A stretch of 63,973 nucleotides of DNA, the filler included, from Perkinsus olseni (taxonomy: Eukaryota): NCBI GenBank assembly GCA_013115125.1. It is 4 parts of 4 records of this genome, joined end to end, with 100 filler letters (N's around TTAATTAATTAA, not from the genome) between each part and the next. Parts side by side here need not be neighbours in the genome. Positions count along the whole stretch, not along the records: positions 17,399 to 34,652 come from JABANN010000651.1; positions 34,753 to 51,993 come from JABANN010000652.1; 2 more parts are not named here. One strand, 5' to 3'. Below, in pieces: positions 18,527 to 51,993 of the stretch. The stretch's first letter is position 1; each line of letters opens with the position of its first letter. A program made the translations under genes and the position numbers. Under the pieces are notes generated by a model. It ran no database searches, had not been told where the DNA came from, and was given only the letters and a program-made list of their open reading frames with translations.

Positions 18527-18587
18527 TACATCGTGCTGTACATGATATAATCGCCACGTCTCTCAGCACAAAGGGCGTCGTCGGCTG
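18527..18587 (-). repeat. Dispersed conserved hairpin motif, copy A
   Basis: Reverse complement contains GTGCTGAGAGACGTGGCGATTATATCATGTACAGCACGATGTA, 41/43 identical to 44464-44506. Confidence 0.85.
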
Positions 18588-18634
18588 TCGCGCCAATAAA
18601 AAACGATAGTGGTCTTCAAAACCTTTCCGATTTA

Positions 18635-18950
18635 CCAGCTGCCGCGATCTTTCTCTTGTGAAGTCCTGGGCCTTCTGTTTGCANNNNNNNNNNNNNNNNN
18701 NNNNNNNNNNNNNNNNNNNNNNNNNNNNNNNNNNNNNNNNNNNNNNNNNNNNNNNNNNNNNNNNNNNNNNNNNNNNNNNNNGATCGCCAGCTGCCGCGAT
18801 CTTTCTCTTGTGAAGTCCTGGGCCTTCTGTTTGCATCGCCAGCTGCTGCGATCTTTCTCTTGTGAAGTCCTGGGCCTTCTGTTTGCATCGCCAGCTGCTG
18901 CGATCTTCCTCTTGTAAAGTCCTGGGCCTTCTGTTTGCATCGCCAGCTGC
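18635..18950. repeat. 52-bp minisatellite, interrupted by an assembly gap
   Basis: Unit CCAGCTGCYGCGATCTTTCTCTTGTGAAGTCCTGGGCCTTCTGTTTGCATCG starts at 18635, 18787, 18839, 18891 and partially at 18943. Confidence 0.95.
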
Positions 18951-18989
18951 GGCGATCAGTGACGTCTTCTGTGACAAGGAGTTGCTCAG

Positions 18990-20140
18990 GTGCGGCCATT
19001 GAAAACCTTTACGTGCCAACCTGGATCCGAGCCTGTACTGGTCAGCACTGGCTGCACTTCTGGTGCTACTTACTTCATAAGAGAATACTGCAACTACGGC
19101 GACCTCAGTCAGTATGTCACTCGTTGCCAGGATATGTGAGCATTCTCGACACATCCACGATTCCGTCTCACTACCTGACCTTCAGGTACCAGATCGAGGG
19201 CAGCCATCTAGGTCTACGATGGTATCTTTCAGCTAAGGATGCCGTAAGGCAGGCCATTGAATGCATCAGGACCGTTCACGATGCCGGGTGAGAGGAAGTC
19301 TATGCAGTCCCCTTTGGCCCAGTATCGGTAGGGGCACTCAGGTACGCCTTGCTGGACGTCGACATGAGTCAGTTCGGAGTGATGGACTTCCGCGGCTACG
19401 GCTCTGGTCTTGACCTTGATGGTCCCCAGCCGATCCAGGTCAAGATTATCGACGCTGGCCAAGCCACCGGTGAGCCGCCTCGGCACTTCCATCGTCACAG
19501 GCATGGATTCTGGTCTGTTCCTTCGTCAGGTCTCTCGACCAACTCCGGATCGACCATCGGTAAGCCCTCCACGCGGTGCCCGGAGGCACAGAAAGCGGCT
19601 GTCCAAGCCGAAAGGGGCATCCCACCTGGAGAGAGGGTAGTACACCATCACTTCCCAGCCGCGTGGCTAACAGCGCATCGCACTCTCAGAAACACTGGTC
19701 AGCGGTTCGTCAGGATACCTGGGCGGTCGGGTTGATGATTTTCGACCTCCTATGGAACTCCCCCTGGCAGCTAGCGAGCGCCGATGATCCGCAATACCGA
19801 CTGTATCGCGAGCGAGGGGTGAGCGACGCTCTCGAGTCACTTTTCATCTCTAGTTGGAGCGTTCAGGTCAGAACCCTGGTCAAGCGCGTGCCCAGCTCTA
19901 GCAACAGATTTGGTGTTGCCCCCCGCGGTGTCGATATGACTATGTCATTACGCGATTTGCTCCGAGGAACGCTCACGGCATGCGATAAGCCCGGGATGTA
20001 GGCCCTCGATGACTGGCCAATCGCCGAGTCTCGCCCCTCAGCTTTCCCTGCGCAGGTTCCTGTCTCTAGGAGCAGTGCTGGCCTCGCCGTGGTGGCAGGA
20101 AAATGATCACCCAGGCGAGAATGTCGATACTCCAACGACG
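18990..20140 (+). pseudogene. Atypical Ser/Thr protein kinase, apparently 5'-truncated or frameshifted
   Basis: Hinge YFIREYCNYGDL, catalytic-loop equivalent HDAGYALLDVDMSQF, VKIIDAGQA, IGKPSTRCPE and DTWAVGLMIF. No Gly-rich loop or VAIK lysine found, and the frame changes near 19040-19060. Confidence 0.6.
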
Positions 20141-20723
20141 ACCGGGGCCCTGGATTGACCTATTAAGGCGTATCATTCATCATCACTAAGGAATTCCCTC
20201 ATTTTCATGTGTATACTAGTAGCTTTCACAAGCCCCCTTCTTCCACTGCCTCGTCCCTAGTCATAACGCATTTTCTGATCTTATTTTTCACCTAACTGCC
20301 TTTTTCACCATCACGAGCAGATAGTTCCTGAACTGTTGCCGGTGGGGTTGTGGACCAGAAGATTCCAAGTCTTCGTCATCATCACCATAGTCGTCTGCGG
20401 TCCGTCTTCCGCGCTGTAAACTTTGCCTGCCTCACTGATTGGCTGCCTGTTGCATTGAAATCAAAAGTATCATCTCAGGACCTCGACCGTCCCCGATAAG
20501 CTGCGTTGTTAATCTCAGAGGGTTGCACTGGAGGTGCCCGGCTTGGTCCTCTCGCTGTGGGGGTGAAGGGTATCGCTCAATGGCGGTAGTACTCGCAGGC
20601 AACGGAGGGACTGTTGAGGGCTAGAAGCGTTCGCATCGCTGACCTCAGCCGCCCTCGGAATCCGAGCTCTCGGGAGGATTTGTTTCCAGTTGGATTTGCA
20701 GTTGATACTCTCTCCACATTCCA

Positions 20724-23648
20724 ATGGCTCAAGACTCGAGGCCCGCTACAGCAGTGAGTCTGCCGAGGCTGGCCAAGGTCAGCAGCAGCAGCAAGCAAGA
20801 GGGAACTGCAGCAGCAGCCCTGACCGTTAGTGAAGATGATGACGGGCCTCAGCCTGTGAAGGTCCTTATTGAGTACTGCCAGCGGTGCTACAGACACCCT
20901 TGGTGCGTCAACCACAGCGAGGAACGCTACTTCTCTCAATTCATGGACATCGCCGGCCGCATCAGCGAGGCCTTTCCCGAGGTGGACGAGATCGTCGCCG
21001 TTAAGGACCCGCGTATTGGTGCATTGGAGGTCACAGTGGTGCATGGACAGCATCAGCAAGTTGTGTTCTCCAAGCTACAGTCGGACAGATGGCCGAATGT
21101 GGCTAAGATTCTGGAGAGGATCAGGCGAGTCGCCCGAAGGATGATGAGCCCCGACCCTCGCAACACGCTGCTGATTGAGAATGAGTTCCTCACGCCGCGG
21201 CATCATACAGTGGAAGTCAGTCTGGCCGCGGAGACCCCTGTCCCGTTCGCCCTGGGCCTCGAGATCACGGATAGGCCTCCCTTTTTGGTCACCGTAGCGC
21301 AGGAAGGGAAATACGGTGCTGAGTGTGGTGTCGCCAGAGGGGATGTACTCCATTGTATTAACGGCAAGGCTTGTGACCGTATGGACCTCGAGGGGCTGTT
21401 GGTGGAGCTCAGGAAGCGTCCCATGCGCCTCTACTGTCGCCGCTTTGATCGGACGAAAAGACGACGCCGCGCTGGCGGAGCGATGTCATTCACCAGACTC
21501 TTCGGAAGAAGGCCGGCATCAATGAGAGCTGAGAAGGCCACAACAGATCACTACCAGAGGCAGCGCAAGGGCATGACGACGATCGACACAATACCACCGA
21601 GGCCTCCACCCAGTCGTAGGCTACCCAAGCCGGCATACCAAGTGAAGCGTACGGACAGGAGCGGAGAGATGATGGGGCCGAGGCTAGGCCCTGTACCGCA
21701 CCCGAGGTCCGCCCCTGACCAGGTTCGCAATGCCCGGTCGAAGACGATGGAAGGACAGCGACCATCGGGCGGTCGACGAACGCAGCCCGGGTCTGAGATG
21801 CTCCTGCAGGGTGAGCGTGGTGGACCCTCGAGGCACAGCGTGAAGAGGATTGGTGCTAGGGCTGCATCAAGCTCCCTGAGTCAGAAGAAGGATCTTACGG
21901 ATACCGCGGGGGACACTGAGGAGTCGCGTATAGAGGAAACTCGCCCTGAGGCCTTAGCCGCGAATGGAACCGGGCTCGCTGCGACTGGTGGAATCGTCCA
22001 AGCTGAAGAAGCAGCCCCTGGACCGGTTGAGGGGGCTAAAGAGGCCAGTTCGATCGATGAGTCTACCGGTGTGCCGAAGCTGCCAGTTGTAACTGACAAC
22101 GGTAGTGCGGGTGAGACCCAGCATAGCGGCCAGAATACTGCTGCTGCTGCTGCTGCTGCTGTAGAGAATTATTACGACGAGGATTTCGAGTCGGATAACG
22201 AGACCTGGGAGGACGAGGATCTCCCTGCTTCCGAGCAGGCTGCCAGGGCTACGACTTCGTCCCCCTCTGTGCCGCCCGTCACTACCAAGGTCCTTGAACC
22301 ACAGCTAGGGAGCAACTCTGCCCCTCTCGAGACGCAAGAGAGGACCGAGATAGCCAATGCTGATTCGAGCGTTGCGGAGGCACCTCAAGAAAGCACGACG
22401 GTAGCGGGTCATGCCATGGCCACTGCAGCGGACATGGGTGAACCCGCTCAGTCTGTGGCGTCATCTCCAGGCCCCAACGGCGGACTCGAGTCACTCGTGA
22501 CAGGTGTAGAGAGTATCGATGGGGACGGAGAAGAGGGTACACCACCACAAGAGGCCGTTGTCGCCACTGCTGCCAACACTGAGGAAGTACCCGAACGAAC
22601 TGCTGGGGTTGCCACCGAGGCCCAAGTTGAGTGCACCGAAGACAGCAGCGGAGCGGAGGAAGGCACCGAGCCTCACAACGCAGGCGAAGGCCCGGAGGTG
22701 GATATCACTGCTCGCGATGTCGGGCAGGCCCCTGCGTCATCCACTGGAACTGACCACGAGCAAGGACCTGATGCCCCCGAGTCAGTTGACGCCGATGTGG
22801 ACAGTCGTGTCGTGCTCGGCGATGACAGTGAATCGACAGAGTTGACCGCAGGCAGGGAAGCCGACTCATCAGCGAACGCCATAGCGACGGAAGGTATCGC
22901 TGAGGCCGGCACTCCCCTACCGGAAACTTGCGCTGATGGAGGCAATGGGGAGGTCGCCGGGCCGGGAGGATCCGAGACTTCTCACGCTGCTGTCGACGCA
23001 GCAGAGGTTGAGGGCCCACAAGCGGCGACCCCGGCTCTCCAGAGTGAGGTTCCTGAGATCGACGACGGTCTCGAGGTCGCAGGCGGAGCGACGCAGCCAG
23101 AGGCCATGCAACCAGGTGTAGAGGAGGCGCCGGACGAAGTCGGGCATGATACTCTCTCCGATGGGGCGCGGGAGATGATCTCCAGCGTGGTAGGCATGGT
23201 GGTCAGGCAAGCGTCAGACCGCATCTCGCCGACTGTGGAAACGGCTCCTGTGGTGGAGGACCCTCCCCAGGCGGGTGGTTCGGAGCAGGCCGAGGAGACG
23301 AAGGACGGCTACGACGATGACTTTGAGGAGTACCTCCCCTCCGATGAAGAAGTGCCCGAGGAACCCAAGGCCAATGCAATGGCTCGTGAAGAGGAGGTCT
23401 GGGGAGGTGCGGGCGATACTCCCCGCCCAGGGAATGAGTTCGAATCGAAGGATCAAGGCCATGACAAACATCGGTCGATTGATGAACCAAATCCTACGAG
23501 TCCAAGGAAGCCTTTCCGTGGAGAACATGCCAATGAAGCCGCGCCCCTGACTGGGGTCGCTGATTTCCCTACTGCGGAAGCCACAGAGGAACGACCCAAG
23601 GCGAGCGATGGCGAGTCTGACTACGACGATGATTTCGAGTCTGACTGA
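20724..23648 (+). CDS. 974-aa protein: Rdx (SelW/SelT/SelH-like) domain, PDZ domain and long acidic disordered tail
   Basis: VLIEYCQRC...PRIGALEVTV...VFSKLQSDRWP (Rdx). LGLEI...VTVAQEGKYGAECGVARGDVLHCING...LRKRPMRL (PDZ). Three YD(D/E)DFE motifs. Confidence 0.85.
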   Translation: MAQDSRPATAVSLPRLAKVSSSSKQEGTAAAALTVSEDDDGPQPVKVLIEYCQRCYRHPWCVNHSEERYFSQFMDIAGRISEAFPEVDEIVAVKDPRIGALEVTVVHGQHQQVVFSKLQSDRWPNVAKILERIRRVARRMMSPDPRNTLLIENEFLTPRHHTVEVSLAAETPVPFALGLEITDRPPFLVTVAQEGKYGAECGVARGDVLHCINGKACDRMDLEGLLVELRKRPMRLYCRRFDRTKRRRRAGGAMSFTRLFGRRPASMRAEKATTDHYQRQRKGMTTIDTIPPRPPPSRRLPKPAYQVKRTDRSGEMMGPRLGPVPHPRSAPDQVRNARSKTMEGQRPSGGRRTQPGSEMLLQGERGGPSRHSVKRIGARAASSSLSQKKDLTDTAGDTEESRIEETRPEALAANGTGLAATGGIVQAEEAAPGPVEGAKEASSIDESTGVPKLPVVTDNGSAGETQHSGQNTAAAAAAAVENYYDEDFESDNETWEDEDLPASEQAARATTSSPSVPPVTTKVLEPQLGSNSAPLETQERTEIANADSSVAEAPQESTTVAGHAMATAADMGEPAQSVASSPGPNGGLESLVTGVESIDGDGEEGTPPQEAVVATAANTEEVPERTAGVATEAQVECTEDSSGAEEGTEPHNAGEGPEVDITARDVGQAPASSTGTDHEQGPDAPESVDADVDSRVVLGDDSESTELTAGREADSSANAIATEGIAEAGTPLPETCADGGNGEVAGPGGSETSHAAVDAAEVEGPQAATPALQSEVPEIDDGLEVAGGATQPEAMQPGVEEAPDEVGHDTLSDGAREMISSVVGMVVRQASDRISPTVETAPVVEDPPQAGGSEQAEETKDGYDDDFEEYLPSDEEVPEEPKANAMAREEEVWGGAGDTPRPGNEFESKDQGHDKHRSIDEPNPTSPRKPFRGEHANEAAPLTGVADFPTAEATEERPKASDGESDYDDDFESD

Positions 23649-24214
23649 GGTAAGTATCCCGCTGAGTTCATTCTCGGATGCGAGTCCTCAGGTTCGTCTC
23701 ATCCCTGTGGCCGATGAATTCAACCTGAGTAGCTCCATGGCATGTAGCATTCAAGTTGTTCAAGTGCTCTCGAGAGTCGTGTGGTGTTCAGTGGCATTAC
23801 AGCTCGGTTCCTCGGGCCAACCAAATCATTGCCATCATCATTGTGGACAGAAAACATTTCATCCGCAGTCCAATACCACTTGCAGCCAAGCGACGGCATG
23901 GCGTTGGTATCCGGCCAGACGGGCTGACTCCTAAACTGTGTGACGGTTCCTCAGTTGCACGTCTACTTCTGCTTCGTTCGTTCACAATCGCAATGGGAAA
24001 TTGTCACCGATCGGGAACCGCTTGGAGCGCAATTTCCTCAGCTACAATTGACCCGAAAGCTTCCTAGCCGGGATGACTTCTGGCTGTGCAACGGTAGCTG
24101 ACCCACGCTGTGCTTCCACCGGAGAGCCCCTCGCTCATGCAACTAGAATGCAACAAGACAACAATGAAGACAACAACATGGGCCAGGACTGTCTAAAATT
24201 CACACTATAAATGA

Positions 24215-25406
24215 TCACTCAAGTCGCTTATGTTTGCTCCCTGGGAATAGACTTCTGAGCCGAGAGAAGCGTGTCCTGGATCTCTTCTCTTGTGAATTTG
24301 CCTCAAGAACCAACCCAATCTTCCCTTCCTGGGCATCGGAGCGTACAGTCCTGTTCCTGAACAGTGACCGGCCCAGCGTCCACATGCTCCCGACACGCTC
24401 AGTGATCAGGAACTCGCAACCGAGCTCCCCTTTCCCTCTTGAGGTCTCTTGAACGAGCAATTCACCACGGATGGACAAACGCATTGGCAGCAGTCGCGCC
24501 TGTAGACAACTTCAGCTCGAGGTCTGGCAGGTACTTAGTATCATCGCAGCGTAAATAATGATATCCTGTCGTTGTTTTTAGTACAACTTTCTTAGCCGCT
24601 TTATTGGCTCTCTTGAAGAAATCGGATATGAGCTTTCTGGCTTCCTCGGGTGGTCCGGCTATATACCCAGCTCCAGAGTCCACCACCGCGAGGCTGTTAA
24701 TATCGATCTTGTCTCGATCTCCCACGGACATGCTTGACAACATAACAGCCCACTTTCGCTTATTGGATGCATCCGCTCCGATTGGGAGGTAGACCAGGTT
24801 CCCAGCCTCGGAAGCTTCCTTGCTCTCCAGTCTGCCTAACGTGAGTTCACCGCGGCCAGGGTCGCCGGCTGGCAGCTTCAAAGTGAATACGGGATGGCTG
24901 ATGACGCCGTGCTCAACTAACTGTGCTAAGAAAGTGTCCGATTTCTCCCGAGGGGGGCCTAAACCGAGACTCGCTTCAGGCATGGCTTGGTCGCTTTCCC
25001 AACTTCCCGTTTTGGTTCTCTGCTTGGCGCGAACAACAACGTAAAGCCTCATTCCAATACTTGCGGGTTTTGGCATTCCAACGACTTCAACTTGTCCTTC
25101 CATCGGTCGCATTTTCTCTTCAACTTCAACATACCCTCGCGTCTTACCCTTTCTCTTCTTCAGCGCTTCCAGCTCGTCAGGAGACAATTCGTAACAGTTT
25201 TAAGGATAATGCCGACACCAGTGTGGGAAGAAGTTCTGTCCAACCACGTGAAAGCTGACGGAGCCTGTGTCCACAACAAGATGGATTGCTTTCCCACCGA
25301 GGAGCAACTCGGTGCGGAGAAAACCTTCCTCGTAGAAGACAGGAAGCTTGATGGAACACCAGATTCGTACCGGGGCGAGGAAAAGAGAACTTTTCCGGAA
25401 CTTTAT
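24215..25406 (-). pseudogene. Pepsin-like (A1) aspartic protease pseudogene
   Basis: VVDTGS and VVDSGA motifs present. In-frame TAA at about 25200-25202 where the paralog has Tyr, a frameshift near 24480, and ATA at the position of the paralog ATG. Confidence 0.88.
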
Positions 25407-26455
25407 ATCGAAGCAAAAAACCAACGGAACCAGCAAGAGGCTGTGAACTGAGCAGTCAATGACTCTATCTTCCAGGAGCGCGTGTTCCCCAATAGTAGAC
25501 TGTTCAACTAGTACACAGTACGTCACATATTACACGACCGCCGTGGTGATAGACTCGGTCGCAGTGAGGTGGATCTGCTGCCATTTTACGACATGAGAGC
25601 TGATGTTAACACACGACAACAACCGATATGAATCTCGGCTTCAATCATCTCTATTGGATAGATCATGCAAGGCTATTGCTGGCCCAATACGATCAAGAGC
25701 TGTCAGTATGTACAGGATGAGGAGAGCTGTGCGTCTCTGGAAAACCATGTCTCGAGCGATCGCCTATGCTCAATTCCTGGACTTTCTTGGGTGCGGGAAG
25801 CCCCCTCAATTGGAGGTCGTTCGGTGAGTCGCCAAATAACCTCCAATTGAGGGTGCTTCACCGACGGCGAGACTGTAGCAGAAAGTGAGCACCTCCGATG
25901 CTGGTCTCCTGAAGCCTTCCCTTAGGAGGGCCGGCATATGGACGGAACGTCTTTGGATAACGCGATAGGGCGTTCGGTGTCTCTTGGCTCAAGGTCGAGT
26001 CTTCCCAGTGCTAGCTCAAGGGCGTCATTGACTACGGAGTTAACCATTAGGAAATGAGAGTGATACTAACTACGAATGGGATATCATCAAATAAATCATA
26101 CTCATAGTCCGATGATTCGGGAGTAATCCGCAGCTGCGGCACGCATATGCATAGCCCAGTCCGCTATGTTCCTGCGTGCAGCGGAGCGGTCGTCAGCATA
26201 TTCATGAAAAGTAGGTTGGGCTTCAATAAGGAGCCCTTCCTAGAGATAGTGCGGTGCGCAGCACCAACGGCAGGCGTATTTAGAACAGCGCAGACTCTTG
26301 AGTGCCCTTTTCGCGCTACGCGCAACTGACTGAGCTATGTAACGCCCGCCGACAGAGCATGTCGGATAGACTAGAACGCAACAGTTCAGGGGACAGGACA
26401 GCTCGACTCACAACATCCACACCAGGAGCATCACAGTCGTGGCCATTCAGGGCTT

Positions 26456-34752: not shown

Positions 34753-34862
34753 CCTCAAACACGTAGTATGTGCTGAATTAGACTGATTTTTGTGATTTGC
34801 ATATCGAATTGGAACACCCTGTAGGTAGAAACTTATGCCGGTGAAACAAAAGAAACTCTAGA

Positions 34863-34880
34863 TTGCTATCTTGGCTCAAG
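34863..34880 (+). other. Spliced-leader-like relic
   Basis: TTGCTATCTTGGCTCAAG matches 16 of the last 18 nt of the Perkinsus SL ACCGTAGCCATCTTGGCTCAAG, with the last 13 exact. Confidence 0.55.
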
Positions 34881-35386: not shown

Positions 35387-37337
35387 TTGACTACGACAGC
35401 AACTCTCGGGACTCTGCTGCGCGCTGCTGGAACTCGGCCTCGGCGGCCATTCACGCTTCTAGCGGCGGTGGCACTCACCATGGTGGCGGTTCCCAGACTG
35501 GTCAGCTTGATCAGAACTATGCTGGCGCAATCCCGGAGTCTGCCGTTCCCCGGCCCGCGGGTGAGAAGGCTCGACGATATACATCATATCACGAGAGTCC
35601 TTCCTCAGGGCTTGCCCATCGTCGGCATGGCCCTCGAGCTAACTCCACATGTAGCGTTGAGGAAAATGATGATGTGGACTGACACGTATGGTGGAACGTT
35701 CGCTTTTTGGTGAGCCTTCCTGCGTCCTTTCCTCGCACCGTGAGCCTTCTCGCTAATTGCAGGATCTTCTTCACTCCCGTCATCGTCACGTCCGACCTTA
35801 AGGTCATAAGAGAAGTTATGCGCGACTCACCGAAGATCTACAGTCCGGAGATACGCAAGAGTCGGCGGTTGGACGAACTGGATATGCCAACTCTGTTGAC
35901 CGCCGATGGAGATGAATGGAAGATGCACCGCCGAATGACAGCCCCGGCATTCAGCGAGAAGAATGCTGATGCGATGCTGCCAACAATTGCCAAAATATCT
36001 CGCCGCTTGGTAGGGGTGAGAATATACATTTCTTATCGAGCGACTCTCCTCAGGTGAACCAGCTCTCGAAGGAGACAAGTCATTCGGGTACAGTCAGTAG
36101 ACGAGTAGATCCGCTCAAATGGTTTCGCCTGGTTACTCTTGACATCATGTTCGCAGTCTCTCAAGGAGAAGACTGGGGATTTCTCGACTCGAGTGAGTTT
36201 GACGACGCAGTTGTGTATGCACTTGACTTTTTCAGGCCCGAGAAGTGGCTTCGTTCTAGAGATGGTAGAGAACTTCCTCGATGGCATCACTTTCCTCATG
36301 ATGAACTCCGGCATGGCAATGATGATACAGCACCGATTTCCTTGGAATCTCAACCCACGCGTTCGCCGGGTAGCAGACCTTACGGGCCTTCGGACTCCTT
36401 AGACTTCGGTGAATCGTAGAGCTGCTCTGTTCAGGCGCATGCAGCACTTCAAAGGGCCGCCCATTTCACAAGGAACGCCATAGATAAGCGGAGGGCTGAG
36501 CTCGAGGCGGGAGAGGAACCCAGGAAGGATATCCTGGATCAACTGATCCAATCGGACACGGACGCCTTGGGGGGGGAACCTTCTGGGGTGAATATTTTCG
36601 TGAAGAAATTCTCTCTCTTCTTGATGATATCATGATGATCAGGTTCATTGTTGCCGGGAGCGAAACGGTAGCGATATCCCTCTCGTGGTTAACCTACACG
36701 TTGTGTAAGTACCCTGACGTCCAGGCCAAAGCTCGCGCGGAAGCCATGTCGCTTGGGCATGACCCCACAACAGCCGACGACCTCGCTAATCTCCCTTATC
36801 TGGAAGCATGTGTATTAGAAAATATCAGAGTACCAAGCTGGCTGTGTAGGCCGGCACTATCCCAACAGGATTCACGCTAGGTCCAAGCGGTAGACCAGAC
36901 CTTCCCCCGGGTCAACTCCGAACCATCGGAAATCGATAGCAAGCCAGTGGCGGCCAATACGGTCGTTATCCTGTTGCTCGGGCGCGCTCTCATACACCCT
37001 GCTCGTGGTGGAACCGACTTCAAGTAACACCCTCGATAGGAGTGCATCAGGGATACAGTTGTTCACTATTCTTTCTCATCTCAGACCAGAGCGGTGGCTG
37101 GGAAGCGACGGGAAAGTCGACAGGAACCACATGAGGGACATTCCTATTTTCGGCGACGGCCCACGAGTTTGTCCTGGGCGGATGCTGGCGGTGAAAGAGA
37201 TAGTTATCATCGCGGCTACATTACTTCGTCATTGCAGCGATATAAGACTTAGTCGCCAATATCTTGAGGTCGGCACTAGAATTAATTTGACCCGTACCCC
37301 GACCAATTTGTATCTTGACTTGGAGTTCAGAGTCTAA
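35387..37337 (+). CDS. Cytochrome P450, multi-exon (apparent +1 frameshift in a G-run; start uncertain)
   Basis: N-terminal TM and PGP, WKMHRR, I-helix AGSET, K-helix ENIR, PERW and heme motif FGDGPRVCPG. Confidence 0.92.
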
Positions 37338-37616
37338 GCCCTCTTCCGAATAAAACTTCCCTACGTCACGGTCCTTGGCGTTCACTGTTCGAAAAGAACT
37401 TTCTGAAGGGGACATTTCAAGGATTTGCATTAGTTGCCTTTGGGTACTAATGTCACCCTCTATACCGATGACCACCAAGAAGTCTCAATGATACGCCCAG
37501 GGCTTGTTGCTATCGGGTAGATGCGCTGTTTGATGTTTGCTTGAAGAACACTACACTGATCTTCTAATAGAGCCCTCAATACTAGCAGTGATTAGACAAC
37601 TTCCATTGCCAATAGT

Positions 37617-39395
37617 TGTCAATCTTATGGAAACCGCAACGGGGTTCCCGAAATACGAAATTCACGGGGAAACCCATAGACGCTGAGGTTGAGAGAGGCA
37701 TACGCGAAACCAGAACCCGTGGGAGGGGACACCTCCTCGAGACCAGATTCGCGAATGCAGACCCGGGAGTAGCTAGGGAAAGGAGATGACGTGGAGACCA
37801 TCAAACTCCAAAATCCCGAGCCGCTCCGGGTCCCCCAACGTCAAGGGAATGGGAGGGATGGGAAAGAGCTATAACACTTCTTCGCACATCCACCAACGCC
37901 TCCATGTATTACTCCACGACTAGCTCACTAGCCAGTCATCGGTGCCACAACCCGTACACGCTTTCGCGTTCGCCCGGGCCGCAAGGGTGATCCTAATCAC
38001 ATCGAACCACAGCTAGAGGTTTCCCCCGCAAGAAATCGTTCCGCATTTCTCTACGATAGAGATTTCAATTTCCACTTTTTTACCACCCCGAGCGCTATTC
38101 GCTCCTACAGTGAAGTAGAACTCCTACTCCCGAAGTTCCTCCTTCACGCGTCCGTCAAGACTCTTCCCTAGAGATGTGACCCTAGGCCCACACAACCGTG
38201 GCCCCTTAGAAGCGAAACTTTACCGGGCTCACTACGCGTGTGGCAGCTTATCTTCGACGGTAGCGTAGTGTCTCTCCGTTAGGTCTATAAATATGCAACT
38301 CCTGCACGGCTTTGCCTCTACTGTTGTTTCTTTCTAGTGGCACTGTACCCGAATAAACGTAGACGCGCTAGATTCCCTTCCTTGGCGCATCTGAAAGCTG
38401 CGTTTTGGCGCTGAGTAACCGACAGTTATTCCCATAAAATGCGTTCTGACCTTCTCATCCTCTCTACAGTAGTTCGTGTCTATGATCGCCAGTCGCAACT
38501 TATAGGCGTGGAGGGGAAATACGTCTACCGGAGTGCTCGTTGCACTGTTCTAGCTTCTGGACCACCTCCTCCCAGTCCCTCGCGGCCACGGTTTCACCGT
38601 ATCCATGAGGTGTGGCCGTATTCTATTTGAGAGCTGGAAACTGCTCGACGAGTTATTCCAGTGCTCGCACAGTTCGACGAACTGAGTTCGGTTCTCGGCA
38701 AAGCAGGCCGTGAACGTTTGTCCCCGTGCCCGAATTTCAGGACTTGTAGTTCAAAGCCTCCTTCGCCGTAGAAGCCTACCAAACACCACAGCTCTTCGAG
38801 CTGTGAGTGTTTGGTCTCGTCTGGCATGGATAAGGGTGTCTCAGAGATTGGTTTGATAGTCATAAGTTGAGAGTTTGGTTTATTAAGGAGTCTGGGTATT
38901 TGGGCCTGATACTCGGGCCGAAACTCGTTTCGTTGGGGTTGCGATGTACATCATACAGTACATTCACAAATATCCCCAACCCGAGTATCTAGCTGCACAA
39001 AACAGGCGATCTCATCTCGGACATTCACGACTCGAACTTAACCCTTCAAACAAGGGCACAACTCGCACAAGGTCTCTAATGCCCGAGAGATATATCGCTG
39101 ATTTGTGCTTGCCCAATAAATTGACCGCATAATCACACCGTTACCTCTCCGACGAACTTCGGATTCAACGTCCCTTCCCAATAGTGAATGGCTCAGCTGA
39201 ATACCGACACTAGATCCCGATCTGAGTAGGGTTTCCTGACTCGGGTAGTTGCTGAGTGAAGAGTAGAGATGAGGTTTTAGATGATCGTGGCTTGGCATGT
39301 AAGGTTACATGATCGGAATGGACTCGTTGGCTGAGGTCATGTGCTTAAGAGAGCTCACCCATGACACCTCGGTGATCTCGCAACTTTCGACCGTA
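37617..39395 (-). mobile_element. Decayed Gypsy-like LTR retrotransposon remnant (integrase C-terminus plus putative LTR 37617-38424)
   Basis: Minus-strand fragments YGRKLR, DLVSVF and TLNPKFVGEVTV resemble Gypsy integrase tails. TGTC...GACA termini bound a noncoding block, part of which recurs at 51922-51988. Confidence 0.5.
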
Positions 39396-39396
39396 A

Positions 39397-39640
39397 AGGC
39401 TGGATGACAGAGACTCGCCACCGAAGCTGAGTATCCTCGGGGAACAGCGCCGTTCAGCCCGACCAACTCATTCTACATGATCGAAGCTGTAGCTGGGTAT
39501 CCTCTGCTCGACTTCAGCTTCGTAATGGTAATGTTCGTCAGGTTGTTGACAACCTTCCACTGGTCGCCGCTAGGGCCTAGCGGCGCTGAGGAAATGGAGG
39601 GCGATCCCCGGTACATGACGATGAGAAAAAGTGAATAAAC
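39397..39640 (-). pseudogene. Internally deleted fragment of a GH18-like gene (paralog of 42617-43679)
   Basis: High nucleotide similarity to about 43090-43270 including the intron, then a jump to the start-codon region at about 43660-43700. Confidence 0.88.
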
Positions 39641-39802
39641 GTGGGTTGTGTCCCCGCTGTGCGCGGTCAAACGCGGGAAGTTCCTGCCGATCCCGCCGGG
39701 AACCGCTGGCGTAACTTACGCCGCGTTAGTCATCGGGGAGGGTAGTCGCAGACCCCTCGTTACCTTATTGCCGTAGTAACCTCCCTGTAGTCAAAGGTTC
39801 CA

Positions 39803-39845
39803 GTGCTGAGAAACGCGGCAAATATACCATGCACAGCACGATGTA
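39803..39845 (+). repeat. Dispersed conserved hairpin motif, copy B
   Basis: GTGCTGAGAAACGCGGCAAATATACCATGCACAGCACGATGTA, 37/43 identical to copy C. Confidence 0.8.
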
Positions 39846-39889
39846 TGAGGGGCGTTTCAAACAAACTCGCTGACTCAGCGCGTTTGCTC

Positions 39890-42335
39890 GAGTTTCTCAG
39901 AAATCGCTGAGCGATTTCTGAGAACGGCCAGCCTACAACAGTCGGACGTCAGAATCCGTCACTACAGCGAAATTGAATCCACTACCAGCGAAATTGATTT
40001 CCGCATTCTGTCGAGATTGGACTTACTTCGGTTGCGCCGGCGAAATTGATGCCAGTAACGTCGCTAAAGCTAGAAATGCGGTGGCATGTCGGCTTTCTTC
40101 AACGGACCAAACTAAACACACATGCATATCGCTGAGTATTGGATGCCTCAGCCATCAAAATGCATTATTGGCGAAATCGCTCATGGCAGAGGTCAACAAC
40201 ACATTATCTCTCGACGAACAAGAGGAAAACAGCAACTTCGAAGGGCAGTTCGGCGAGGTCACAGGCTGGTGCATGACGACATCCAAATTCCTCAGACAGT
40301 CATATATCAATAGACTCTACTCGTCGATGAAGGGAACCTTAGTTCCGACCATAGGGACGACGAGGTGGTTATCGTCAGTGACCTGTCTTCGCAAACTCCT
40401 CGATAATTGGGACACCATAAAAGTTCTCCTCGAAACCCTGAGAGAGCAGGAACTTGACAAGTACTAGATAGTGCCTAGTGGACGCGTCGCTCGCTACCTG
40501 TTCTTGATGTCATATACCGCCTCCTGACTCGTCATATATCATCTTTCAGTCTAAATGACAAGTTGCTCAAGAAACTGGAGACCATGGAGGAGCTGTGAAC
40601 CCCTGAGAACCGGGAGAGAGCGACGGAAACCTACGAAATAATGCGACCATTAGCCGATCTCAACTATTTCCTTCAAGCAGACGACACTACTCTGTTCGAG
40701 GGGATTAAGAACGTTGTGGACGTGTACACCAAACTATCACAAGATGAGAGGCTCTCCGCTGAGTCCCGAAAAATCGTCAAGAAAAGGTAATTCACCAGCG
40801 CTCTCGAACGGTGCTCAGCCGCAACCCACGAGAGGAGTAATGGATGTACTCAGGATCAAGAATAAGAACATCAAGAAATACAGATGGATCCTTCACTTCG
40901 ACCCGGTTCAGCATGCTCTCACGGCAGAGCCATCGCGACGTGCCGAAGTCCTAGCCAGCATCAGCCAGGGCATCAAAGACTTCAGCGAGACTCAGCCGGA
41001 AGGAATCTCCATGGAAAAGGGCTTGAGAGATATCGCAGACTACCTAAACAGGACAGGTAATGCCTCAAGATGAGCAAGGATACGCACCCGAGAATCGAGT
41101 GGAATCCACTCAGTGGATGTTCTCTACTAGGTAATCACAAGAAGATCCCAATCGAAGCGCTATCAACGATGTCCGCTAAAGATTACTGGGGGCAGTTCAA
41201 CGCAGACAGTCGCTTGGCTTACTTCTTGTACTTGACGACCATATCACCGTCTGGAACGGCTGCACAAGAGCGCTTCTTTTCATCAGCAAAATTCGTCGCT
41301 AGGTGAGCCGCAGCGAAAAGTAGCGCCCGCCATCACAATCGAGCCAGTGGGTGCGTTCTCAAACGTTTCCTACTAAAGCTGCACTCTGCGGGATTTGAAC
41401 CCGCGTCAATCGCACGATGACTATGCGTATCACTTGCTACGCTAAATTTGCGCACGTACTAGCGCCTGCCCATTAACCATGAACATACAACTGCACTAGT
41501 TCCTATTTTGGTGGCATACGCGAGATTAGCTGAGTATTCGCTTCCGTAATACTTTGCATTTGAATGCGGCTCCTCGGCTATGGAGCCATATTTGATTGGC
41601 AGGGAGAACCTGAAGACGCGGAAGATCTTCCGTGATGCCTTCCTCAAGTGGACAACGCGGAAAAAAATGCAAAGCAAGACATCGAGCGGCTCGGCAGTAG
41701 CGCTAAGTGGAGAGTCTGATACGTCCTAGATATCCAAATCATTTGATCACCGACTTTCGGTAGATGCAATACGACATATTGTTATTGTTCCCGTCAGCTG
41801 TGAAGATGAATGAAGCTGTTATGTTGTTGTGAAGATGCTTTTGTTGTTAAGGTGTTAACGAGATATAGCGGGTTGCGCTCTTAGTCCATCTCCTTACCCA
41901 TGAAGTCAGCCGTGTGCCGTCGAATGAGTCAACGGATAGAATTCCTCAATTGTAGCAATCAAATTGTGTACATTTTACTGAGCCGGATGTACCCAACGCG
42001 CACTCAACGCAACGCTGATGGTGAAGACTGACGTGTAGTTGAATTTCCGTATCATTCCAGGATAGACAGGCGGTCCGCCAGGGGCGGACCTTGAGAGAAA
42101 ATTGAATCTTTTCATTATTTCCTTATTTTTTCCTATTTTTCCTATTTTTCCCTATTTTTCCTCTATTTTTCTTTTATTCTGTCCGGAAATTTTACGAAGG
42201 AAAGAATCGGTTTTCTATCTTTCCGTCAGCCACCCTGTATCGCGCGCACTGGCGAAATTGATCTTACTAAGGCATATCTTGGCGCGGGTAATCGCTCGCC
42301 CTGCGAAATTGATCTTACTAATCGCGAAATAGGCC
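39890..42335 (+). mobile_element. Defective hAT DNA transposon with intron-containing transposase remnant (about 40040-41729); termini unresolved
   Basis: DASNVAKA, CLSH (CxxH), TRWLS and C-terminal ISPSGTAAQERFFS. GCGAAATTGA repeats occur at both ends (about 39967-40050 and 42252-42313). Frameshifts and stops are present. Confidence 0.82.
41380..41451 (-). pseudogene. Degenerate tRNA-like element inside a transposase intron
   Basis: Reverse complement GCAAATTTAGCGTAGCAAGTGATACGCATAGTCATCGTGCGATTGACGCGGGTTCAAATCCCGCAGAGTGCA has a perfect T-arm/B-box and a GCGT/ACGC D-stem, but mismatches in the acceptor stem. Confidence 0.65.
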
Positions 42336-42616
42336 TTGAAAAGGTGTAGTCACGGACGAGTGGGATCTCTAGTAAAGATCCCTCACCGAAGCGCACTGAT
42401 AACTCAAGTCTTGTTTGGCTCCAAGAATAGACTGATTCGAAGGGTACAATCCCTCCCGACAACGTGCTCGATATTTTGAAGTAGTCAGTCATCGGGTGAT
42501 TACAGCCAAGAATGTTTTCGACAAAATGATGAAGATCAAGCTTGAGGTAACAGAAGCCGGACTGATCGGGAATTGAGAGGCTCCCAAATTCAGTCTCACT
42601 GAGGGTGATTCCCGAG

Positions 42617-43679
42617 CTAGCCCTGTAGAGCAGCGTGTAGCAGAGAAGATGCGTTGTTAGGAGGTAGATCGAAGGCAGGGAACAATATACCCAAGCCGTG
42701 CAAACTCCTGTTTCTGATAAGTTGGGCCTTCCCTTCAACTTGCTTTTGCGAGTTATAATAGAAGTCCTTGAAGTGCCCATCCCCATACGCCGGCGCTCCC
42801 GCATCGATCAAATTTCTATAAGACTCAGCGTTGCTGAGATTATCGTAGCGGCCGTCAGGGATTATCTGAGAACAACTGCCAATGGACCGCACCCTCGAGC
42901 TGTGAATATCTGCAAACTCACAGTGAAGGAAAGATGCGAGATGTTGGCGGAGTAGTTGAGCAAGCGAGTCGTTATGTTTTCTGCCCAATCCACGCTTATT
43001 TGGGTCTTGTAGTCCACGGAGTCGGTGTCGAGCAGGCAGTAGTCCCGATCCGTATAGTTCCACGGCTGGTGAACCTTGAGGTCTTCCCAAAGGCTAGATG
43101 ACAGAGACTCGCCACCGAACCTGAGTATCTCCGAGGTACAGCGCTTTTCAGCTCGACCAACTCGTTTTACATGATCGAAGCTGTAGCTGGGTATCCTCTG
43201 CTCGACTTCAGCTTCGTACTGGTAATGTTCGTCAGGTTGTTGACGACATTCCACTGGTCGCCGCTGGGCATCACTGCTTTGACCCACAACTCGAAAAGAA
43301 GGCCGTCAGCGTTGTAGTCCTTGATGGTAGCTTGAGCTTCGGCGGCGAAGTCGGAGAGACTCCTGCTGCTATTAACGATGAAGGGCTGCGGGACAACGCC
43401 TAGCGACACACTGCCATTGTACTTCACGGCATAGTTGTGTATTTCCTCAGCAAGAGGGATCGTCATCCATTTGCGAGGGAAGATAATAGACCCGTCGGGC
43501 CCGAGCCAGTTCCCGGCCAGGATGACATGCTCAACGCCTGCCTCGAACAAATCACGATAACCGCTCGCATTGAGTTTATCGATCGCAGTGACGGCAACCG
43601 TCACGGGCACAGCCTCGGCTGCCGGTATCCACAGAAGTGCAACGCTGAGAAGATGCATGAAGGGCGATCCACGGCACAT
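42617..43679 (-). CDS. Secreted GH18 chitinase-like protein lacking the catalytic motif, three exons
   Basis: Signal peptide. YNADGLLFELW sits at the FDGIDIDWE position. C-terminal FYYNSQKQVEGKAQLIRNRSLHGLGIL...FDLP. Two short GT-AG introns join the ORFs. Confidence 0.72.
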
Positions 43680-44445
43680 GACGATGAGGAGAAGTGAGAA
43701 AGTGAAAACTGAGAAGATCCACGAGCTCTCACTAGTCATAGCTGGAAGGAGGTTGTTTATTCTAAGGATGCTCTTAACAGGCAAGAGCAGTTAATGATCA
43801 GTCCATCAGTTAAACTGATCGGCCGCCCAGAATGACTTAGTGAGGTGGCGTGCACGCATGATACGGAGCGCACGTATACCAACGCTCAACTCTCGGTAAG
43901 GGTAATGTTTTGAACCTTGACAAGTTTAACTTGTAGGAAGAATTTCCTGGAGAGGATGAGTATGCGATCAGCACTCGTATTAAGACAACCAGTTGAAGGA
44001 ATGTCGAAGTACTCGGAATAGGGATCAAAGAGTAACGAGGAGAGAACGAGGGACCCGGTGCACGCGCGGCTGCAGGGACAATTTGTCCTGGACAAATGGC
44101 TCCGCTGGCGACGGCAGTTCGAGAGATGATAGCCGCTCCCTATTCAGTGCTTCCTCGTTGCAGTGTAGTGCTTGACTGATATCGCAGTATCTCCAACTTC
44201 CGTCACAGCAATCTGCACTCTGACAGCCACTGTAAAAGGTTTTCCAAAACCTCGTGAGCACTTTTGGGTACGTGCAAGTCGGGGCTCTGTGAGAGTTTCG
44301 GATCAAATGTTTGGGGTGTTATGGCCCATCAATCGGCATGATGCCGAATTACGTAGCTGGCGATGTAAGAAAGACCATTCAACGCGCTCCTAGAGGTGGG
44401 TGGCTAAGACGATCATGGTTCGGCGCAATTAAGTTATCGGCGGGG

Positions 44446-44506
44446 CAGCTGGTGACGCCCTTTGTGCTGAGAGACGTGGCGATTCTACCATGTACAGCAC
44501 GATGTA
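44446..44506 (+). repeat. Dispersed conserved hairpin motif, copy C
   Basis: GACGCCCTTT followed by GTGCTGAGAGACGTGGCGATTCTACCATGTACAGCACGATGTA. The 5' extension is shared with copy A. Confidence 0.85.
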
Positions 44507-51988: not shown

Positions 51989-51993
51989 AGGTG

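What the first reader, a model, noticed from the sequence alone, without database searches (positions are those of the whole stretch)
18527..44506. Conserved 43-nt hairpin in three copies, each just upstream of and co-oriented with a coding region
Seen: consensus GTGCTGAGARACGYGGCRAWTMTAYCATGYACAGCACGATGTA at 18527-18569 (minus), 39803-39845 (plus) and 44464-44506 (plus), on two contigs. The outer stem GTGCTG/CAGCAC and the tail GATGTA are invariant, and the differences fall in the inner stem and loop. Copy C lies about 195 nt before the metacaspase ATG, copy B about 200 nt before the transposase remnant, and copy A ahead of decayed minus-strand ORFs (17520-18500). No TSD or known RNA family was recognised. 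Inference: an undescribed structured ncRNA or cis-element (promoter, trans-splicing or processing signal), or the terminus of an unknown mobile element that captures or drives genes. This is my best candidate for a new system, but three copies cannot establish function.
Basis: partly seen in the sequence, partly recalled or inferred. Interest (0 to 1): 0.72.

Follow-up and report, generated by a model that had tools for sequence, protein, structure and literature searches.

The report
Dispersed hairpin repeat in Perkinsus DNA
The three look-alike 43-base hairpins are real, but they belong to a family of roughly a hundred or more copies scattered through this shellfish parasite's genome, one of them lying backwards inside an intron, so they look like a small mobile repeat with a protected hairpin core and not like a control signal placed in front of particular genes.

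Summary
A profile search finds a fourth, diverged copy at about 883-977 (+). The window is eukaryotic. Exons in it are 100% identical to a protein that NCBI names as Perkinsus olseni.

Contigs of one DNA run show the motif is a dispersed repeat. 155 contigs pile on 44456-44523, and summed depth is about 150 times the single-copy level. Only loop positions vary in 5% or more of copies.

The hairpin is selected. The diverged copy changes 7 stem bases yet keeps all 12 pairs (P about 4e-4).

It is not a gene-start signal:
- Copy A lies antisense inside an intron of a plus-strand kinase-like gene.
- Copy B is a decaying duplicate of the copy C region.
- Only C and D sit upstream of co-oriented genes.

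There was no Rfam match, no hAT-type ends, no match in the three sequence collections, and no hit for the sequence in the paper library.

Best reading (0.5): a new short non-autonomous mobile repeat whose hairpin, near a sharp right end, is the cis signal for copying. The element class and its partner enzyme are unknown. Interest is modest.

The parts
18527..18569 (-). Copy A, 43-nt core (two-stem hairpin plus GATGTA tail)
   Evidence: 0 mismatches; the hairpin is the minimum-energy fold, -13.4 kcal/mol, z -1.55. It differs from C at 2 of 43 positions.
18505..18634 (-). Copy A, extended element between the 52-nt tandem array and the inferred right end
   Evidence: A-C similarity is 85% over 18511-18599. 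A 30-nt upstream block is significant against shuffles. The left limit is inferred from where the tandem array stops.
18483..18989 (+). Host intron (GT..AG) of a plus-strand kinase-like gene; it holds copy A in antisense, a 52-nt tandem array and an assembly gap
   Evidence: exons on both sides match P0002 (49 of 49 aa identical after the intron). Searches show the donor GTAGTA at 18483 and an acceptor AG at 18988-18989. Other gaps and introns of this gene are 44-60 nt.
18635..18957 (-). 52-nt tandem array abutting the left side of copy A (interrupted by gap 18684-18781)
   Evidence: period 52, 3.4 copies, 96% matches.
39803..39845 (+). Copy B, 43-nt core, decayed
   Evidence: B is 37 of 43 identical to C. 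Two of its changes (T>C at 39816 and 39832) break inner-stem pairs. Fold is -9.2 kcal/mol, z -0.49.
39395..39873 (+). Region B as a degenerate duplicate of region C (two fragments of the first exon of a minus-strand gene, then the motif and 28 nt beyond it)
   Evidence: 39395-39589 matches 43089-43282 (89%), 39594-39634 matches 43657-43697 (88%), and 39803-39873 matches 44464-44534 (80%). One search shows shared peptide stretches on the minus strand.
44464..44506 (+). Copy C, 43-nt core
   Evidence: hairpin -16.2 kcal/mol, z -3.08 (2 of 200 shuffles fold as well).
44434..44527 (+). Copy C, extended element; 44456-44523 is the part shared with most genomic copies
   Evidence: tables 7 and 8: alignments of other copies mostly start at 44456/44457 and end at 44507, 44509 or 44523. 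Searches give the A-C similarity.
914..950 (+). Copy D hairpin (GAGCAG...TTGCTC outer stem, ACGTGA/TCATGT inner stem), diverged
   Evidence: nhmmer E 1.7e-5 with a profile made from A, B and C only; -12.1 kcal/mol, z -3.04.
848..976 (+). Copy D, possible whole element between two 9-nt direct repeats
   Evidence: TCTCTGCAT at 839-847 and 977-985. About 0.045 such matches are expected by chance in the windows compared (my estimate). This is suggestive only.
44702..44881 (+). First exon of the metacaspase-like gene downstream of copy C
   Evidence: Peptidase_C14, E 0.0025, 17.9 bits against a cut-off of 21.4.
43170..43710 (-). First exon of an unnamed minus-strand gene upstream of copy C and divergent from it
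   Evidence: 207-aa frame; contigs of X7, X8 and X9 cover it and all stop at 43710 while the DNA run goes on. No Pfam family.
40040..41306 (+). Truncated fragment of a transposase-like gene (with introns) downstream of copy B
   Evidence: P0003: 61% identity over query residues 43-179. The hAT-like reading rests on recalled motifs. No Pfam hit and no named homologue.
1331..2479 (+). EF-hand protein gene downstream of copy D (ATG inferred at 1331)
   Evidence: EF-hand_1, E 5.6e-06 at 1965-2246; EF-hand families at 1701-1943.

Best explanation
The 43-nt hairpin is the conserved core of a short dispersed repeat of at least about 95-130 nt. The genome of this Perkinsus olseni-type organism holds on the order of 100 or more copies.

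I read it as a non-autonomous mobile element. On the element's own strand, the two-stem hairpin sits about 22-27 nt from a sharply defined right-hand end. I propose it is the cis signal recognised by whatever enzyme copies the element, either a reverse transcriptase that reads a 3' stem-loop or a rolling-circle or other transposase.

On this view, lineages that still spread must keep the hairpin. That would explain why the core is nearly invariant among copies while the flanks differ. A copy that has landed then decays freely.

Copies land in non-coding DNA such as introns and gene-upstream regions, and are transcribed passively as parts of host RNAs.

Shown here: the multi-copy dispersed nature, conservation of the core with variation confined to the loop, compensatory changes in a diverged copy, one copy inside an oversized intron and antisense to its host, and decay of a duplicated copy.

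Inferred: the sharp right end, mobility itself, the role of the hairpin, and the class of the element.
For: 1. Copy number and spread. In one search, 155 contigs of DNA run X4 were laid on the 1601-nt stretch. Summed depth is 29,810 in bin 44464-44517 against 178-210 in single-copy bins. The table-8 rows of other copies cover only about 44436-44523, inside contigs of 1.3-10 kb.

2. Conservation pattern (table 3). Only 44484, 44485, 44487, 44488 and 44492 carry variants that reach 5%. Four of the five lie in or beside the loop. 44488 C>T turns a G-C pair into G-U.

3. Right end (table 7). The loose ends behind 44507 and 44509 share GGAAAGCTTCTATCG and then lose agreement (0.72 and 0.59 over 30 nt). 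Behind 44523 agreement is 0.40, about what unrelated sequence gives.

4. The structure is selected. On the four copies, 46 of 48 pair cells are standard pairs, and 3 pairs change on both sides, all in copy D (14 of 500 shuffles reach this; slid controls give 15-56% paired). Seven random stem substitutions keep all 12 pairs in 3.7e-4 of trials. D was found by a sequence-only profile.

5. Strand. G-U pairs occur on the motif strand in A, C and D. Those three cores fold better on that strand than on the other: -13.4, -16.2 and -12.1 against -8.6, -12.7 and -6.4 kcal/mol.

6. Insertion-like context. Copy A and a 52-nt tandem array fill intron 18483-18989 of a gene whose other introns are 44-60 nt. 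Only 22 + 32 nt of that intron lie outside them.

7. Decay in place. B is a duplicate of the C region. Its core is 86% identical to C (37 of 43), no better than the co-duplicated gene fragments (88-92%). Five of its 6 changes are not among the family variants that reach 5%, and two of them break stem pairs.

8. A 9-nt direct repeat brackets copy D at the expected right end.
Against: - No element class could be assigned. No perfect 8-bp target duplication with 9 of 12 terminal inverted repeats was found within 600 nt of any of the 4 copies. Looser inverted repeats differ from copy to copy and look like chance.
- No poly(A) or simple-repeat tail is seen, and no CTRR end (read).
- No reverse transcriptase or Rep/helicase ORF is in the window: 0 of 86 ORFs of 110 aa or more.
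- No empty site was seen, so mobility is not demonstrated.
- A core far better conserved than its flanks is also what selection on each copy in place would give.
- Flank similarity outside the core is significant only for A against C.
- The copy count comes from contig depths. The tool itself warns these are not copy numbers. Alleles and contigs split at the repeat may inflate it, so the range is perhaps 75-155.
- The covariation rests on one diverged copy.
- Copy B folds better on the opposite strand.
Confidence: 0.5

Rival explanations
1. The copies are individually functional RNA hairpins. Each is a protein-binding element carried in untranslated parts of many pre-mRNAs or mRNAs, forming a post-transcriptional regulon. 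It spread by duplication or by an old transposition and is now kept by selection at each site.
For: The core is nearly invariant, with only the loop varying, across roughly 150 copies while the flanks differ. D carries compensatory changes. G-U pairs point to one strand. Runs that behave like RNA at the neighbouring gene hold the motif inside longer contigs: 21 contigs in X8 (depths up to 314.6 and 170.1), 84 in X7 and 4 in X9. C and D lie 196 and about 380 nt upstream of co-oriented genes. The 3' arm carries an ACCATG in A-like and C-like copies.
Against: Copy A, which has an intact core, is antisense to the only transcript known to cross it. Copy B decayed as fast as the neighbouring pseudogene fragments. 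Contigs give no strand. X7 also holds an unspliced contig across an inferred intron of the metacaspase-like gene, so it contains DNA or pre-mRNA (record 15). No RNA run is on record as such.
Confidence: 0.15
2. The copies are dispersed copies (retro-pseudogenes) or genes of a small structured RNA of about 70-110 nt. The conserved master genes keep producing near-identical copies.
For: The unit shared by most copies is short (44456-44523, 68 nt) and has a sharp right end. The loop position 44485 falls into three large classes (G in 48 contigs, A in 35, C in the rest), as several master genes would give. D could descend from a variant master with compensatory changes. As recalled, not tested, the 5' stem GUGCU.../...AGCAC followed by AUGUAC resembles the start of U6 snRNA.
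Against: No Rfam family matches at the gathering threshold or at E up to 10. The sequence to the left of the core is also conserved in many copies (loose-end consensus ATTGGCG..GGCGG and AGACCAC in X4, X7, X8 and X9). That does not fit copies of a 68-nt RNA. No shared T-run terminator is seen. RNA-like contigs run 100-250 nt past the motif on both sides (table 7).
Confidence: 0.15
3. The motif is a DNA or RNA cis-element (promoter, trans-splicing or processing signal) serving the coding region just downstream of each copy.
For: C and D are upstream of and co-oriented with real genes, at 196 and about 380 nt from the ATG. An X7 contig for the metacaspase-like gene begins at 44537, just after the element, though a contig cannot show a start. 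The core contains GACGTGGC, which I recall as a bZIP-type site.
Against: A is inside an intron and antisense to its host. B precedes only a 5'-truncated fragment. A 43-nt invariant block with compensatory stem changes is not how promoters usually look. About 150 copies in roughly 58 Mb of contigs is far fewer than the number of genes.
Confidence: 0.08

Closest known systems
Pr77, the conserved first 77 nt shared by the L1Tc and NARTc retrotransposons of Trypanosoma cruzi (PMC3383444; I saw only the search listing and the start of the abstract)
   Same: A short, strongly conserved module at one end of dispersed elements in a trans-splicing protist, kept because the element itself needs it. In Pr77 that need is an internal promoter plus an HDV-like ribozyme.
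   Different: Pr77 lies at the 5' end and has assigned activities. Here the hairpin is near the right (probably 3') end. No ribozyme family matches, no promoter activity is known, and no autonomous partner was found in the window.
3' stem-loops shared by 'stringent' LINEs and their partner SINEs, recognised by the LINE reverse transcriptase (recalled, for example eel UnaL2/UnaSINE1; not checked in any call)
   Same: A conserved hairpin a few tens of nt from a sharp 3' end. Copies differ more towards the 5' side. The stem is kept by compensatory change.
   Different: No short tandem-repeat or poly(A) tail is seen, and no partner LINE is known. A target duplication is seen only as one 9-nt candidate.
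Helitron 3' ends (a hairpin about 10-12 nt before a terminal CTRR; recalled)
   Same: A hairpin close to a sharp end. The end is the most conserved part of the family. Non-autonomous copies lie in introns and near genes.
   Different: The consensus right end reads ...GCTTCTATCG, not CTRR. The hairpin is a 37-nt two-stem structure lying 22-27 nt from the end. No Rep/helicase gene was seen.
Introner elements of Amoebophrya, a related alveolate (PMC7789003; passages read)
   Same: Repeated hairpin-forming elements found in the introns of a myzozoan parasite, and thought to spread like transposable elements.
   Different: Those elements are whole introns. Their 8-20-nt inverted repeats join the two intron ends, and 3-5-nt direct repeats lie at the exon borders. 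Here the hairpin is internal. Copy A occupies only part of a canonical GT..AG intron, in antisense, and 3 of 4 copies are not in introns.
hAT-type MITEs
   Same: Short, non-coding, dispersed in introns and gene flanks. One copy lies beside a transposase-like gene fragment.
   Different: No terminal inverted repeats with an 8-bp target duplication surround any of the 4 copies.

Membership tests
Any Rfam RNA family | Covariance-model match at or near the family's gathering score | tested here: not met
   (whole window, gathering threshold): only two tRNA hits, both elsewhere. (44300-44720, E up to 10): 3 hits at E 4.5-8.1, all on the other strand and far below gathering.
hAT-type MITE | Terminal inverted repeats flanked by an 8-bp target-site duplication | tested here: not met
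   0 candidates around 4 of 4 copies (perfect 8-bp duplication plus at least 9 of 12 inverted-repeat matches, within 600 nt); looser inverted repeats (11 of 14) occur at B, C and D but are unrelated to one another and have no duplication longer than 2 nt.
tRNA-derived SINE | tRNA-related head with internal A and B boxes | tested here: not met
   Searches (ARAGORN; Rfam tRNA) find no tRNA-like sequence at any copy. I saw no A or B box by eye, judged against recalled consensus.
Non-LTR retroposon / SINE with LINE-type 3' end | Conserved 3' stem-loop close to a sharp 3' end | tested here: met
   The hairpin lies 22-27 nt from the point where loose-end agreement falls to chance level (table 7).
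Non-LTR retroposon / SINE with LINE-type 3' end | Target-site duplications of variable length, a tail repeat, and a partner LINE with the same 3' end | tested here: inconclusive
   There is one 9-nt direct repeat around D, none of 7 nt or more at B or C, and only a chance-level 7-mer at A. No tail repeat is seen. No reverse transcriptase ORF is in the window. The rest of the genome could not be searched.
Helitron (non-autonomous) | 3' hairpin followed by terminal CTRR, inserted between A and T | tested here: not met
   A hairpin is present, but the consensus end is GCTTCTATCG, and the ends in A, B, C and D show no CTRR.
Gene-proximal cis-element (promoter, 5' leader or processing signal) | Consistent position upstream of, and co-oriented with, the gene served | tested here: not met
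   Two of 4 copies (C, D) fit. A is intronic and antisense. B precedes a truncated fragment.
Structured RNA (generic) | Base pairs kept through compensatory changes | tested here: met
   3 of 12 pairs change on both sides and 95.8% of cells are paired. P about 4e-4 for copy D. The caveat is that all double changes come from one sequence.
Introner element (Amoebophrya type) | Inverted repeats at the two intron ends and short direct repeats across the exon borders | tested here: not met
   Intron 18483-18989 has ordinary GT..AG ends, and the hairpin lies 44-86 nt inside it. The definition is from PMC7789003.

The most novel reading that the evidence does not exclude
The hairpin may be a strand-specific single-stranded nucleic-acid structure kept by selection over a long time, as the compensated stems of copy D suggest. 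It would mark a so far unknown kind of very small eukaryotic hairpin element. One possibility is a eukaryotic counterpart of bacterial REP/REPIN-like hairpin repeats with its own dedicated enzyme. Another is a roughly 100-gene RNA regulon read by one RNA-binding protein in a parasite whose gene control is mostly post-transcriptional.
Probability: 0.15. Interest if true: 0.65.

Novelty: new member of a known kind. Interest (0 to 1): 0.33.

Why it matters
Perkinsus species are major parasites of clams and oysters and are early-branching relatives of dinoflagellates and apicomplexans. Their repeats and gene-control signals are almost undescribed.

A well-defined repeat of about 100 or more copies, with a hairpin that is clearly under selection, has several uses:
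- It is a marker for genome annotation, because copies inflate introns and sit in gene flanks.
- It offers a handle for finding the enzyme that moves it.
- It is a caution against reading three local copies as a regulatory signal.

If the hairpin turned out to be an RNA-protein recognition element, it would be one of the first cis-acting RNA signals known in this lineage.

Tried and rejected
- **Whole genome:** none is held for this window (error), so no census of copies was possible.
- **Sequence collections:** pattern scans found 0 loci in metagenome contigs, 0 in viral contigs and 0 in prokaryote genomes. Only exact matches to my degenerate patterns could be found.
- **Papers:** four 16-18-nt strings of the motif, both strands, gave 0 papers. 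Word searches on Perkinsus with motifs, repeats, transposons or promoters listed nothing on this element (listings only). I therefore saw no description in print in that library. Subscription journals and Repbase are not covered.
- **Protein route to more copies:** the 106-aa frame that runs through copy C has no relatives.
- **Earlier notes of this scan:** nothing on this motif by sequence, place or words.
- **Sequencing runs:** no RNA holder is listed. I treated X7, X8 and X9 as RNA-like only because all three stop at 43710 where the DNA run goes on. X7 also has an unspliced low-depth contig, so it is not clean.
- **Parts without cover in those runs:** for example 43762-44031. These say nothing.
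- **More copies in the window:** the covariance model with filters off gave nothing convincing beyond the four. The next hit scored 17.8 bits and lacks the hairpin.
- **Longer homology to the left of the core, including the 52-nt tandem unit against C and D:** not significant against shuffles, except for the A-C 30-nt block.
- **Thermodynamics in 80-nt context:** unremarkable, z from +0.17 to -1.54.
- **'Transposase remnant' and a chitinase-like reading of the minus-strand gene:** no Pfam support and no named homologue. I dropped the chitinase idea.
- **A conserved upstream ORF starting at the ACCATG in the 3' arm:** the peptides differ in length and end (11 and 14 codons in A and B, about 72 in C), and conservation is at the nucleotide level. 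I treated this as coincidental.
- **SECIS, hammerhead, C/D-box and U6-like readings:** considered by eye only and dropped because the required motifs or pairings are absent.


Full report
**What the window is.** It consists of four pieces joined by runs of N and TTAATTAATTAA linkers: 1-17298, 17399-34652 (with an inner gap at 18684-18781), 34753-51993 and 52094-63973. It is eukaryotic. ORFs match eukaryotic aspartyl protease, cytochrome P450, EF-hand, Rdx and Cys/Met-metabolism families, and genes are split by short introns. A plus-strand gene on piece 2 matches a protein that NCBI names 'hypothetical protein FOZ63_021921 [Perkinsus olseni]'. The match is 100% over two exon stretches (49 of 49 and 33 of 33 residues). 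A P. marinus protein matches at 71%. This agrees with earlier notes of this scan that call the genome P. olseni.

**The observation.** Each match has no mismatch, and none of 100 shuffles produced a match (sequences). A profile built from these three copies alone finds a fourth, diverged copy at about 901-985 (+), E 1.7e-5. The next hit is at E 3.4. A covariance model run with filters off over the whole window finds no further convincing copy. The next hit scores 17.8 bits and lacks the hairpin. I call the copies A, B, C and D. D's hairpin is at 914-950.

**The structure.** The core folds as two stems: GTGCTG/CAGCAC and ACGTGG/CCATGT (the latter has one G-U pair). An AGAG/A internal loop separates them and an 8-nt loop closes them.
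- On the four-copy alignment, 46 of 48 pair cells are standard pairs. Three of 12 pairs change on both sides. Sliding the partners by 1-3 columns gives 15-56% paired. 14 of 500 column shuffles reach the observed values.
- All three double changes, and one G-C to G-U change, are in copy D. D differs at 7 of 24 stem positions yet keeps all 12 pairs. In a simulation of 7 random stem substitutions this happened in 3.7e-4 of trials.
- D was found without any use of structure, so this is fair evidence that the pairing is selected. It still rests on one sequence.
- As 46-47-nt cores, the hairpin is the minimum-energy fold in A, C and D: -13.4, -16.2 and -12.1 kcal/mol, with z of -1.55, -3.08 and -3.04. 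These fold better than their opposite strands (-8.6, -12.7 and -6.4 kcal/mol).
- B is the exception. It folds at -9.2 kcal/mol (z -0.49) on the motif strand and -14.6 on the other.
- In 80-nt context the energies are unremarkable, with z from +0.17 to -1.54.
- Rfam has nothing at gathering thresholds. At E up to 10 around copy C it gives three chance-level hits on the other strand.

**Copy number and conservation in the genome.** No genome is held for the window. I therefore laid the Logan contigs of four public runs on 43600-45200 at 80% likeness.
- In X4, a DNA run that may be the source of the assembly, 155 contigs were laid. Nearly all lie on one short stretch.
- Summed contig depth is 29,810 in bin 44464-44517 and 3,496 in the bin before it. 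Single-copy bins read 178-210.
- The listed pieces of other copies span from 44436-44470 to 44498-44523 and lie inside contigs of 1.3 to 10 kb.
- The tool warns that these depths are not copy numbers. Alleles and contigs broken at the repeat are counted too. I take the family to be of the order of 100 copies, perhaps 75-155.
- Only five positions carry variants that reach 5% of the depth: 44484 T>C (10 contigs), 44485 C>A (35) and C>G (48), 44487 A>G (5), 44488 C>T (11) and 44492 G>A (2). Four of them lie in or beside the loop. 44488 C>T gives a G-U pair.
- Differences close to the ends of the short alignments are not listed by the tool, so this invariance is shown for the central part only.
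- The loose ends give the family's flanks. To the right, most copies read GATGTA, then about 2 nt, then GGAAAGCTTCTATCG. Agreement then drops (0.72 and 0.59 over 30 nt). Behind 44523 it is 0.40, about what unrelated sequences give. I infer a sharp right end 22-27 nt after the hairpin.
- To the left, the consensus strings of all four runs share ATTGGCG..GGCGG and, further out, A(A/G)ACCAC. Agreement is lower there (0.45-0.56), probably because of indels. The left side is conserved but looser, and its limit is unknown.
- Four joints that 'go back' 49-60 nt show that a few loci carry two cores in tandem.

**Genomic context of the four copies.**
Instead, 17875-18482 is plus-strand coding sequence of the kinase-like gene. 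The exon ends at 18482 before GTAGTA, and the next exon starts at 18990 after AG. Copy A lies 44 nt inside this intron, antisense to the gene. The other gaps and introns of the gene are 44-60 nt. This one is 507 nt plus an assembly gap. It is filled by the element (about 18505-18634) and an abutting 52-nt tandem array (18635-18957). Only 22 + 32 nt lie outside them, which is the size of an ordinary intron here. This looks like an insertion.
- Copies B and C. They are not independent. Region B repeats, in order, two fragments of the first exon of an unnamed minus-strand gene (39395-39589 and 39594-39634 against 43089-43282 and 43657-43697, 88-92% identical). It then repeats the motif plus 28 nt beyond it, at 80%.
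- Decay of B. B's core is 37 of 43 identical to C, no better than the co-duplicated gene fragments. Five of its six changes are not among the family's common variants. Two of them break inner-stem pairs. A landed copy therefore seems to decay freely.
- Downstream of B. An ORF becomes homologous from about 40040 to a small protein family (best hit 61% identical, 4 relatives among 1.84 billion representatives). Its motifs I recall as hAT-transposase-like. Pfam and the named-protein search give nothing. The fragment lacks the family's first 56 or so residues.
- Copy C. It lies between divergent genes. It ends 196 nt before the ATG (44702) of a metacaspase-like exon (Peptidase_C14, E 0.0025, below cut-off). 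It starts 754 nt from the point (43710) where contigs of X7, X8 and X9 for the minus-strand gene all stop while DNA goes on. That is a weak hint of a transcript end.
- Copy D. It lies about 380 nt upstream of the inferred ATG of an EF-hand protein gene.
- Overall, two of four copies are upstream of intact co-oriented genes, one is intronic and antisense, and one sits in decayed DNA.

**Transcription.** No run is on record as RNA. X7, X8 and X9 behave like RNA at the minus-strand gene. They hold the motif in 84, 21 and 4 contigs, at internal positions. Unrelated sequence of about 100-250 nt lies on both sides, and depths reach 314.6 and 170.1 in X8. Some copies are therefore parts of longer transcripts. 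Contigs give no strand, start or end. X7 also holds an unspliced contig across an inferred intron of the metacaspase-like gene, so it is not pure mature mRNA.

**Tests for a known element class.**
- No perfect 8-bp duplication with terminal inverted repeats surrounds any copy. Looser inverted repeats differ from copy to copy.
- A 9-nt direct repeat, TCTCTGCAT, brackets D at 839-847 and 977-985, exactly at the expected right end. By my estimate about 0.045 such matches arise by chance. B and C have none of 7 nt or more, and A has only a chance-level 7-mer.
- There is no poly(A) or simple-repeat tail and no CTRR end.
- There is no tRNA-like head.
- None of 86 long ORFs of the window matches a reverse transcriptase or Rep/helicase family.
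- The pattern was not found in metagenome, viral or prokaryote collections, nor as a string in the paper library.

**Interpretation.** The evidence fits a short non-autonomous mobile repeat best:
- dispersed copies, on the order of 100 or more;
- a sharp right end;
- a hairpin kept by compensatory change in a diverged lineage;
- free decay of a duplicated copy;
- an intron swollen by a copy in antisense.

I propose that the hairpin is the cis signal the element needs in order to be copied. That would explain why lineages that still spread keep it while the rest of the element drifts. Mobility, the enzyme and the class are inferred, not shown (confidence 0.5). Three rivals remain:
- Selection on each copy as an RNA-protein recognition hairpin (0.15). 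Copies A and B argue against it.
- Copies or genes of a small structured RNA (0.15). The conserved left flank and the long transcripts argue against it.
Copy A argues against it.

**Comparison with known systems.**
- By function it most resembles short conserved end-modules of retroposons. One example is Pr77 of trypanosome L1Tc/NARTc (PMC3383444; listing and abstract start only).
- It also resembles, from recall only, the 3' stem-loops that 'stringent' LINEs share with their SINEs, and Helitron 3' hairpins.
- It is not an Amoebophrya-type introner. Those carry inverted repeats at the intron ends and direct repeats at the exon borders (PMC7789003, passages read).
- I found no description of this element. 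It is a new family of a familiar kind, and its interest is modest unless the hairpin proves to be a recognition signal of a new sort.

Noticed in passing
window 18635-18957 (with gap 18684-18781): A 52-nt tandem array (at least 4 units, 96% matches) sits inside the intron of the kinase-like gene and directly abuts the left side of copy A. Whether it belongs to the element or expanded later is open.
   Followed up: partly
window 39894-39924: A perfect 31-nt palindrome with a 1-nt centre (15-nt arms, 100% complementary) lies 49 nt downstream of copy B. Its arms resemble the 5' arm of copy B (CTGAGAAA). Earlier notes of this scan describe 1-nt-centred palindromes in this genome as transposon excision scars.
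   Followed up: no
window 40040-41306 (+): Pieces of a 5'-truncated, intron-containing gene. They are homologous to a small protein family (P0003, 61% identity) whose motifs TDNAANV, CLSHQNAL and TRWLS I recall as hAT-transposase-like. No Pfam family matches the pieces or their relatives.
   Followed up: partly
window 41380-41451 (-): A weak tRNA match in Rfam (30.3 bits, gathering 29) that ARAGORN does not call. It lies just after the transposase-like fragment and may be a tRNA pseudogene or a tRNA-derived fragment.
   Followed up: no
window 44918-45208 (+): The second exon of the metacaspase-like gene reads FSFSGRACQ at the place where, as I recall, metacaspases have the catalytic SGHG. The protein may be an inactive protease homologue.
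   Followed up: no
window 44194-44355: A second low-copy repeat lies upstream of copy C. DNA contig depth rises to 700-945 against about 210, and a 6.2-kb contig matches 44230-44405 with 19 substitutions and 16 gap positions.
   Followed up: no
window 24465-25199 and 26459-27712 (-): Two neighbouring aspartyl-protease genes, 65-73% identical at the DNA level. This is a local tandem duplication.
   Followed up: no
window 52094-63973: The fourth piece has a clearly lower G+C content (41-45%) than the other three (49-59%) and few recognisable ORFs. It may be a different genomic compartment or a different origin.
   Followed up: no
window 44565-44617: About 60 nt downstream of copy C the block ATTGGCG recurs, followed by a small palindrome AGTGCTAA-C-TTAGCACT that reuses the GTGCT/AGCAC stem words. 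It may be a degenerate second copy, but the covariance model does not report it.
   Followed up: partly
window 43708-43712 (-): Contigs of X7, X8 and X9 for the minus-strand gene all end at 43710. This is next to an AG on the minus strand, and the X7 contig carries 21 further letters that do not lie on the stretch. That would fit a spliced-leader junction, but the letters were not shown.
   Followed up: no
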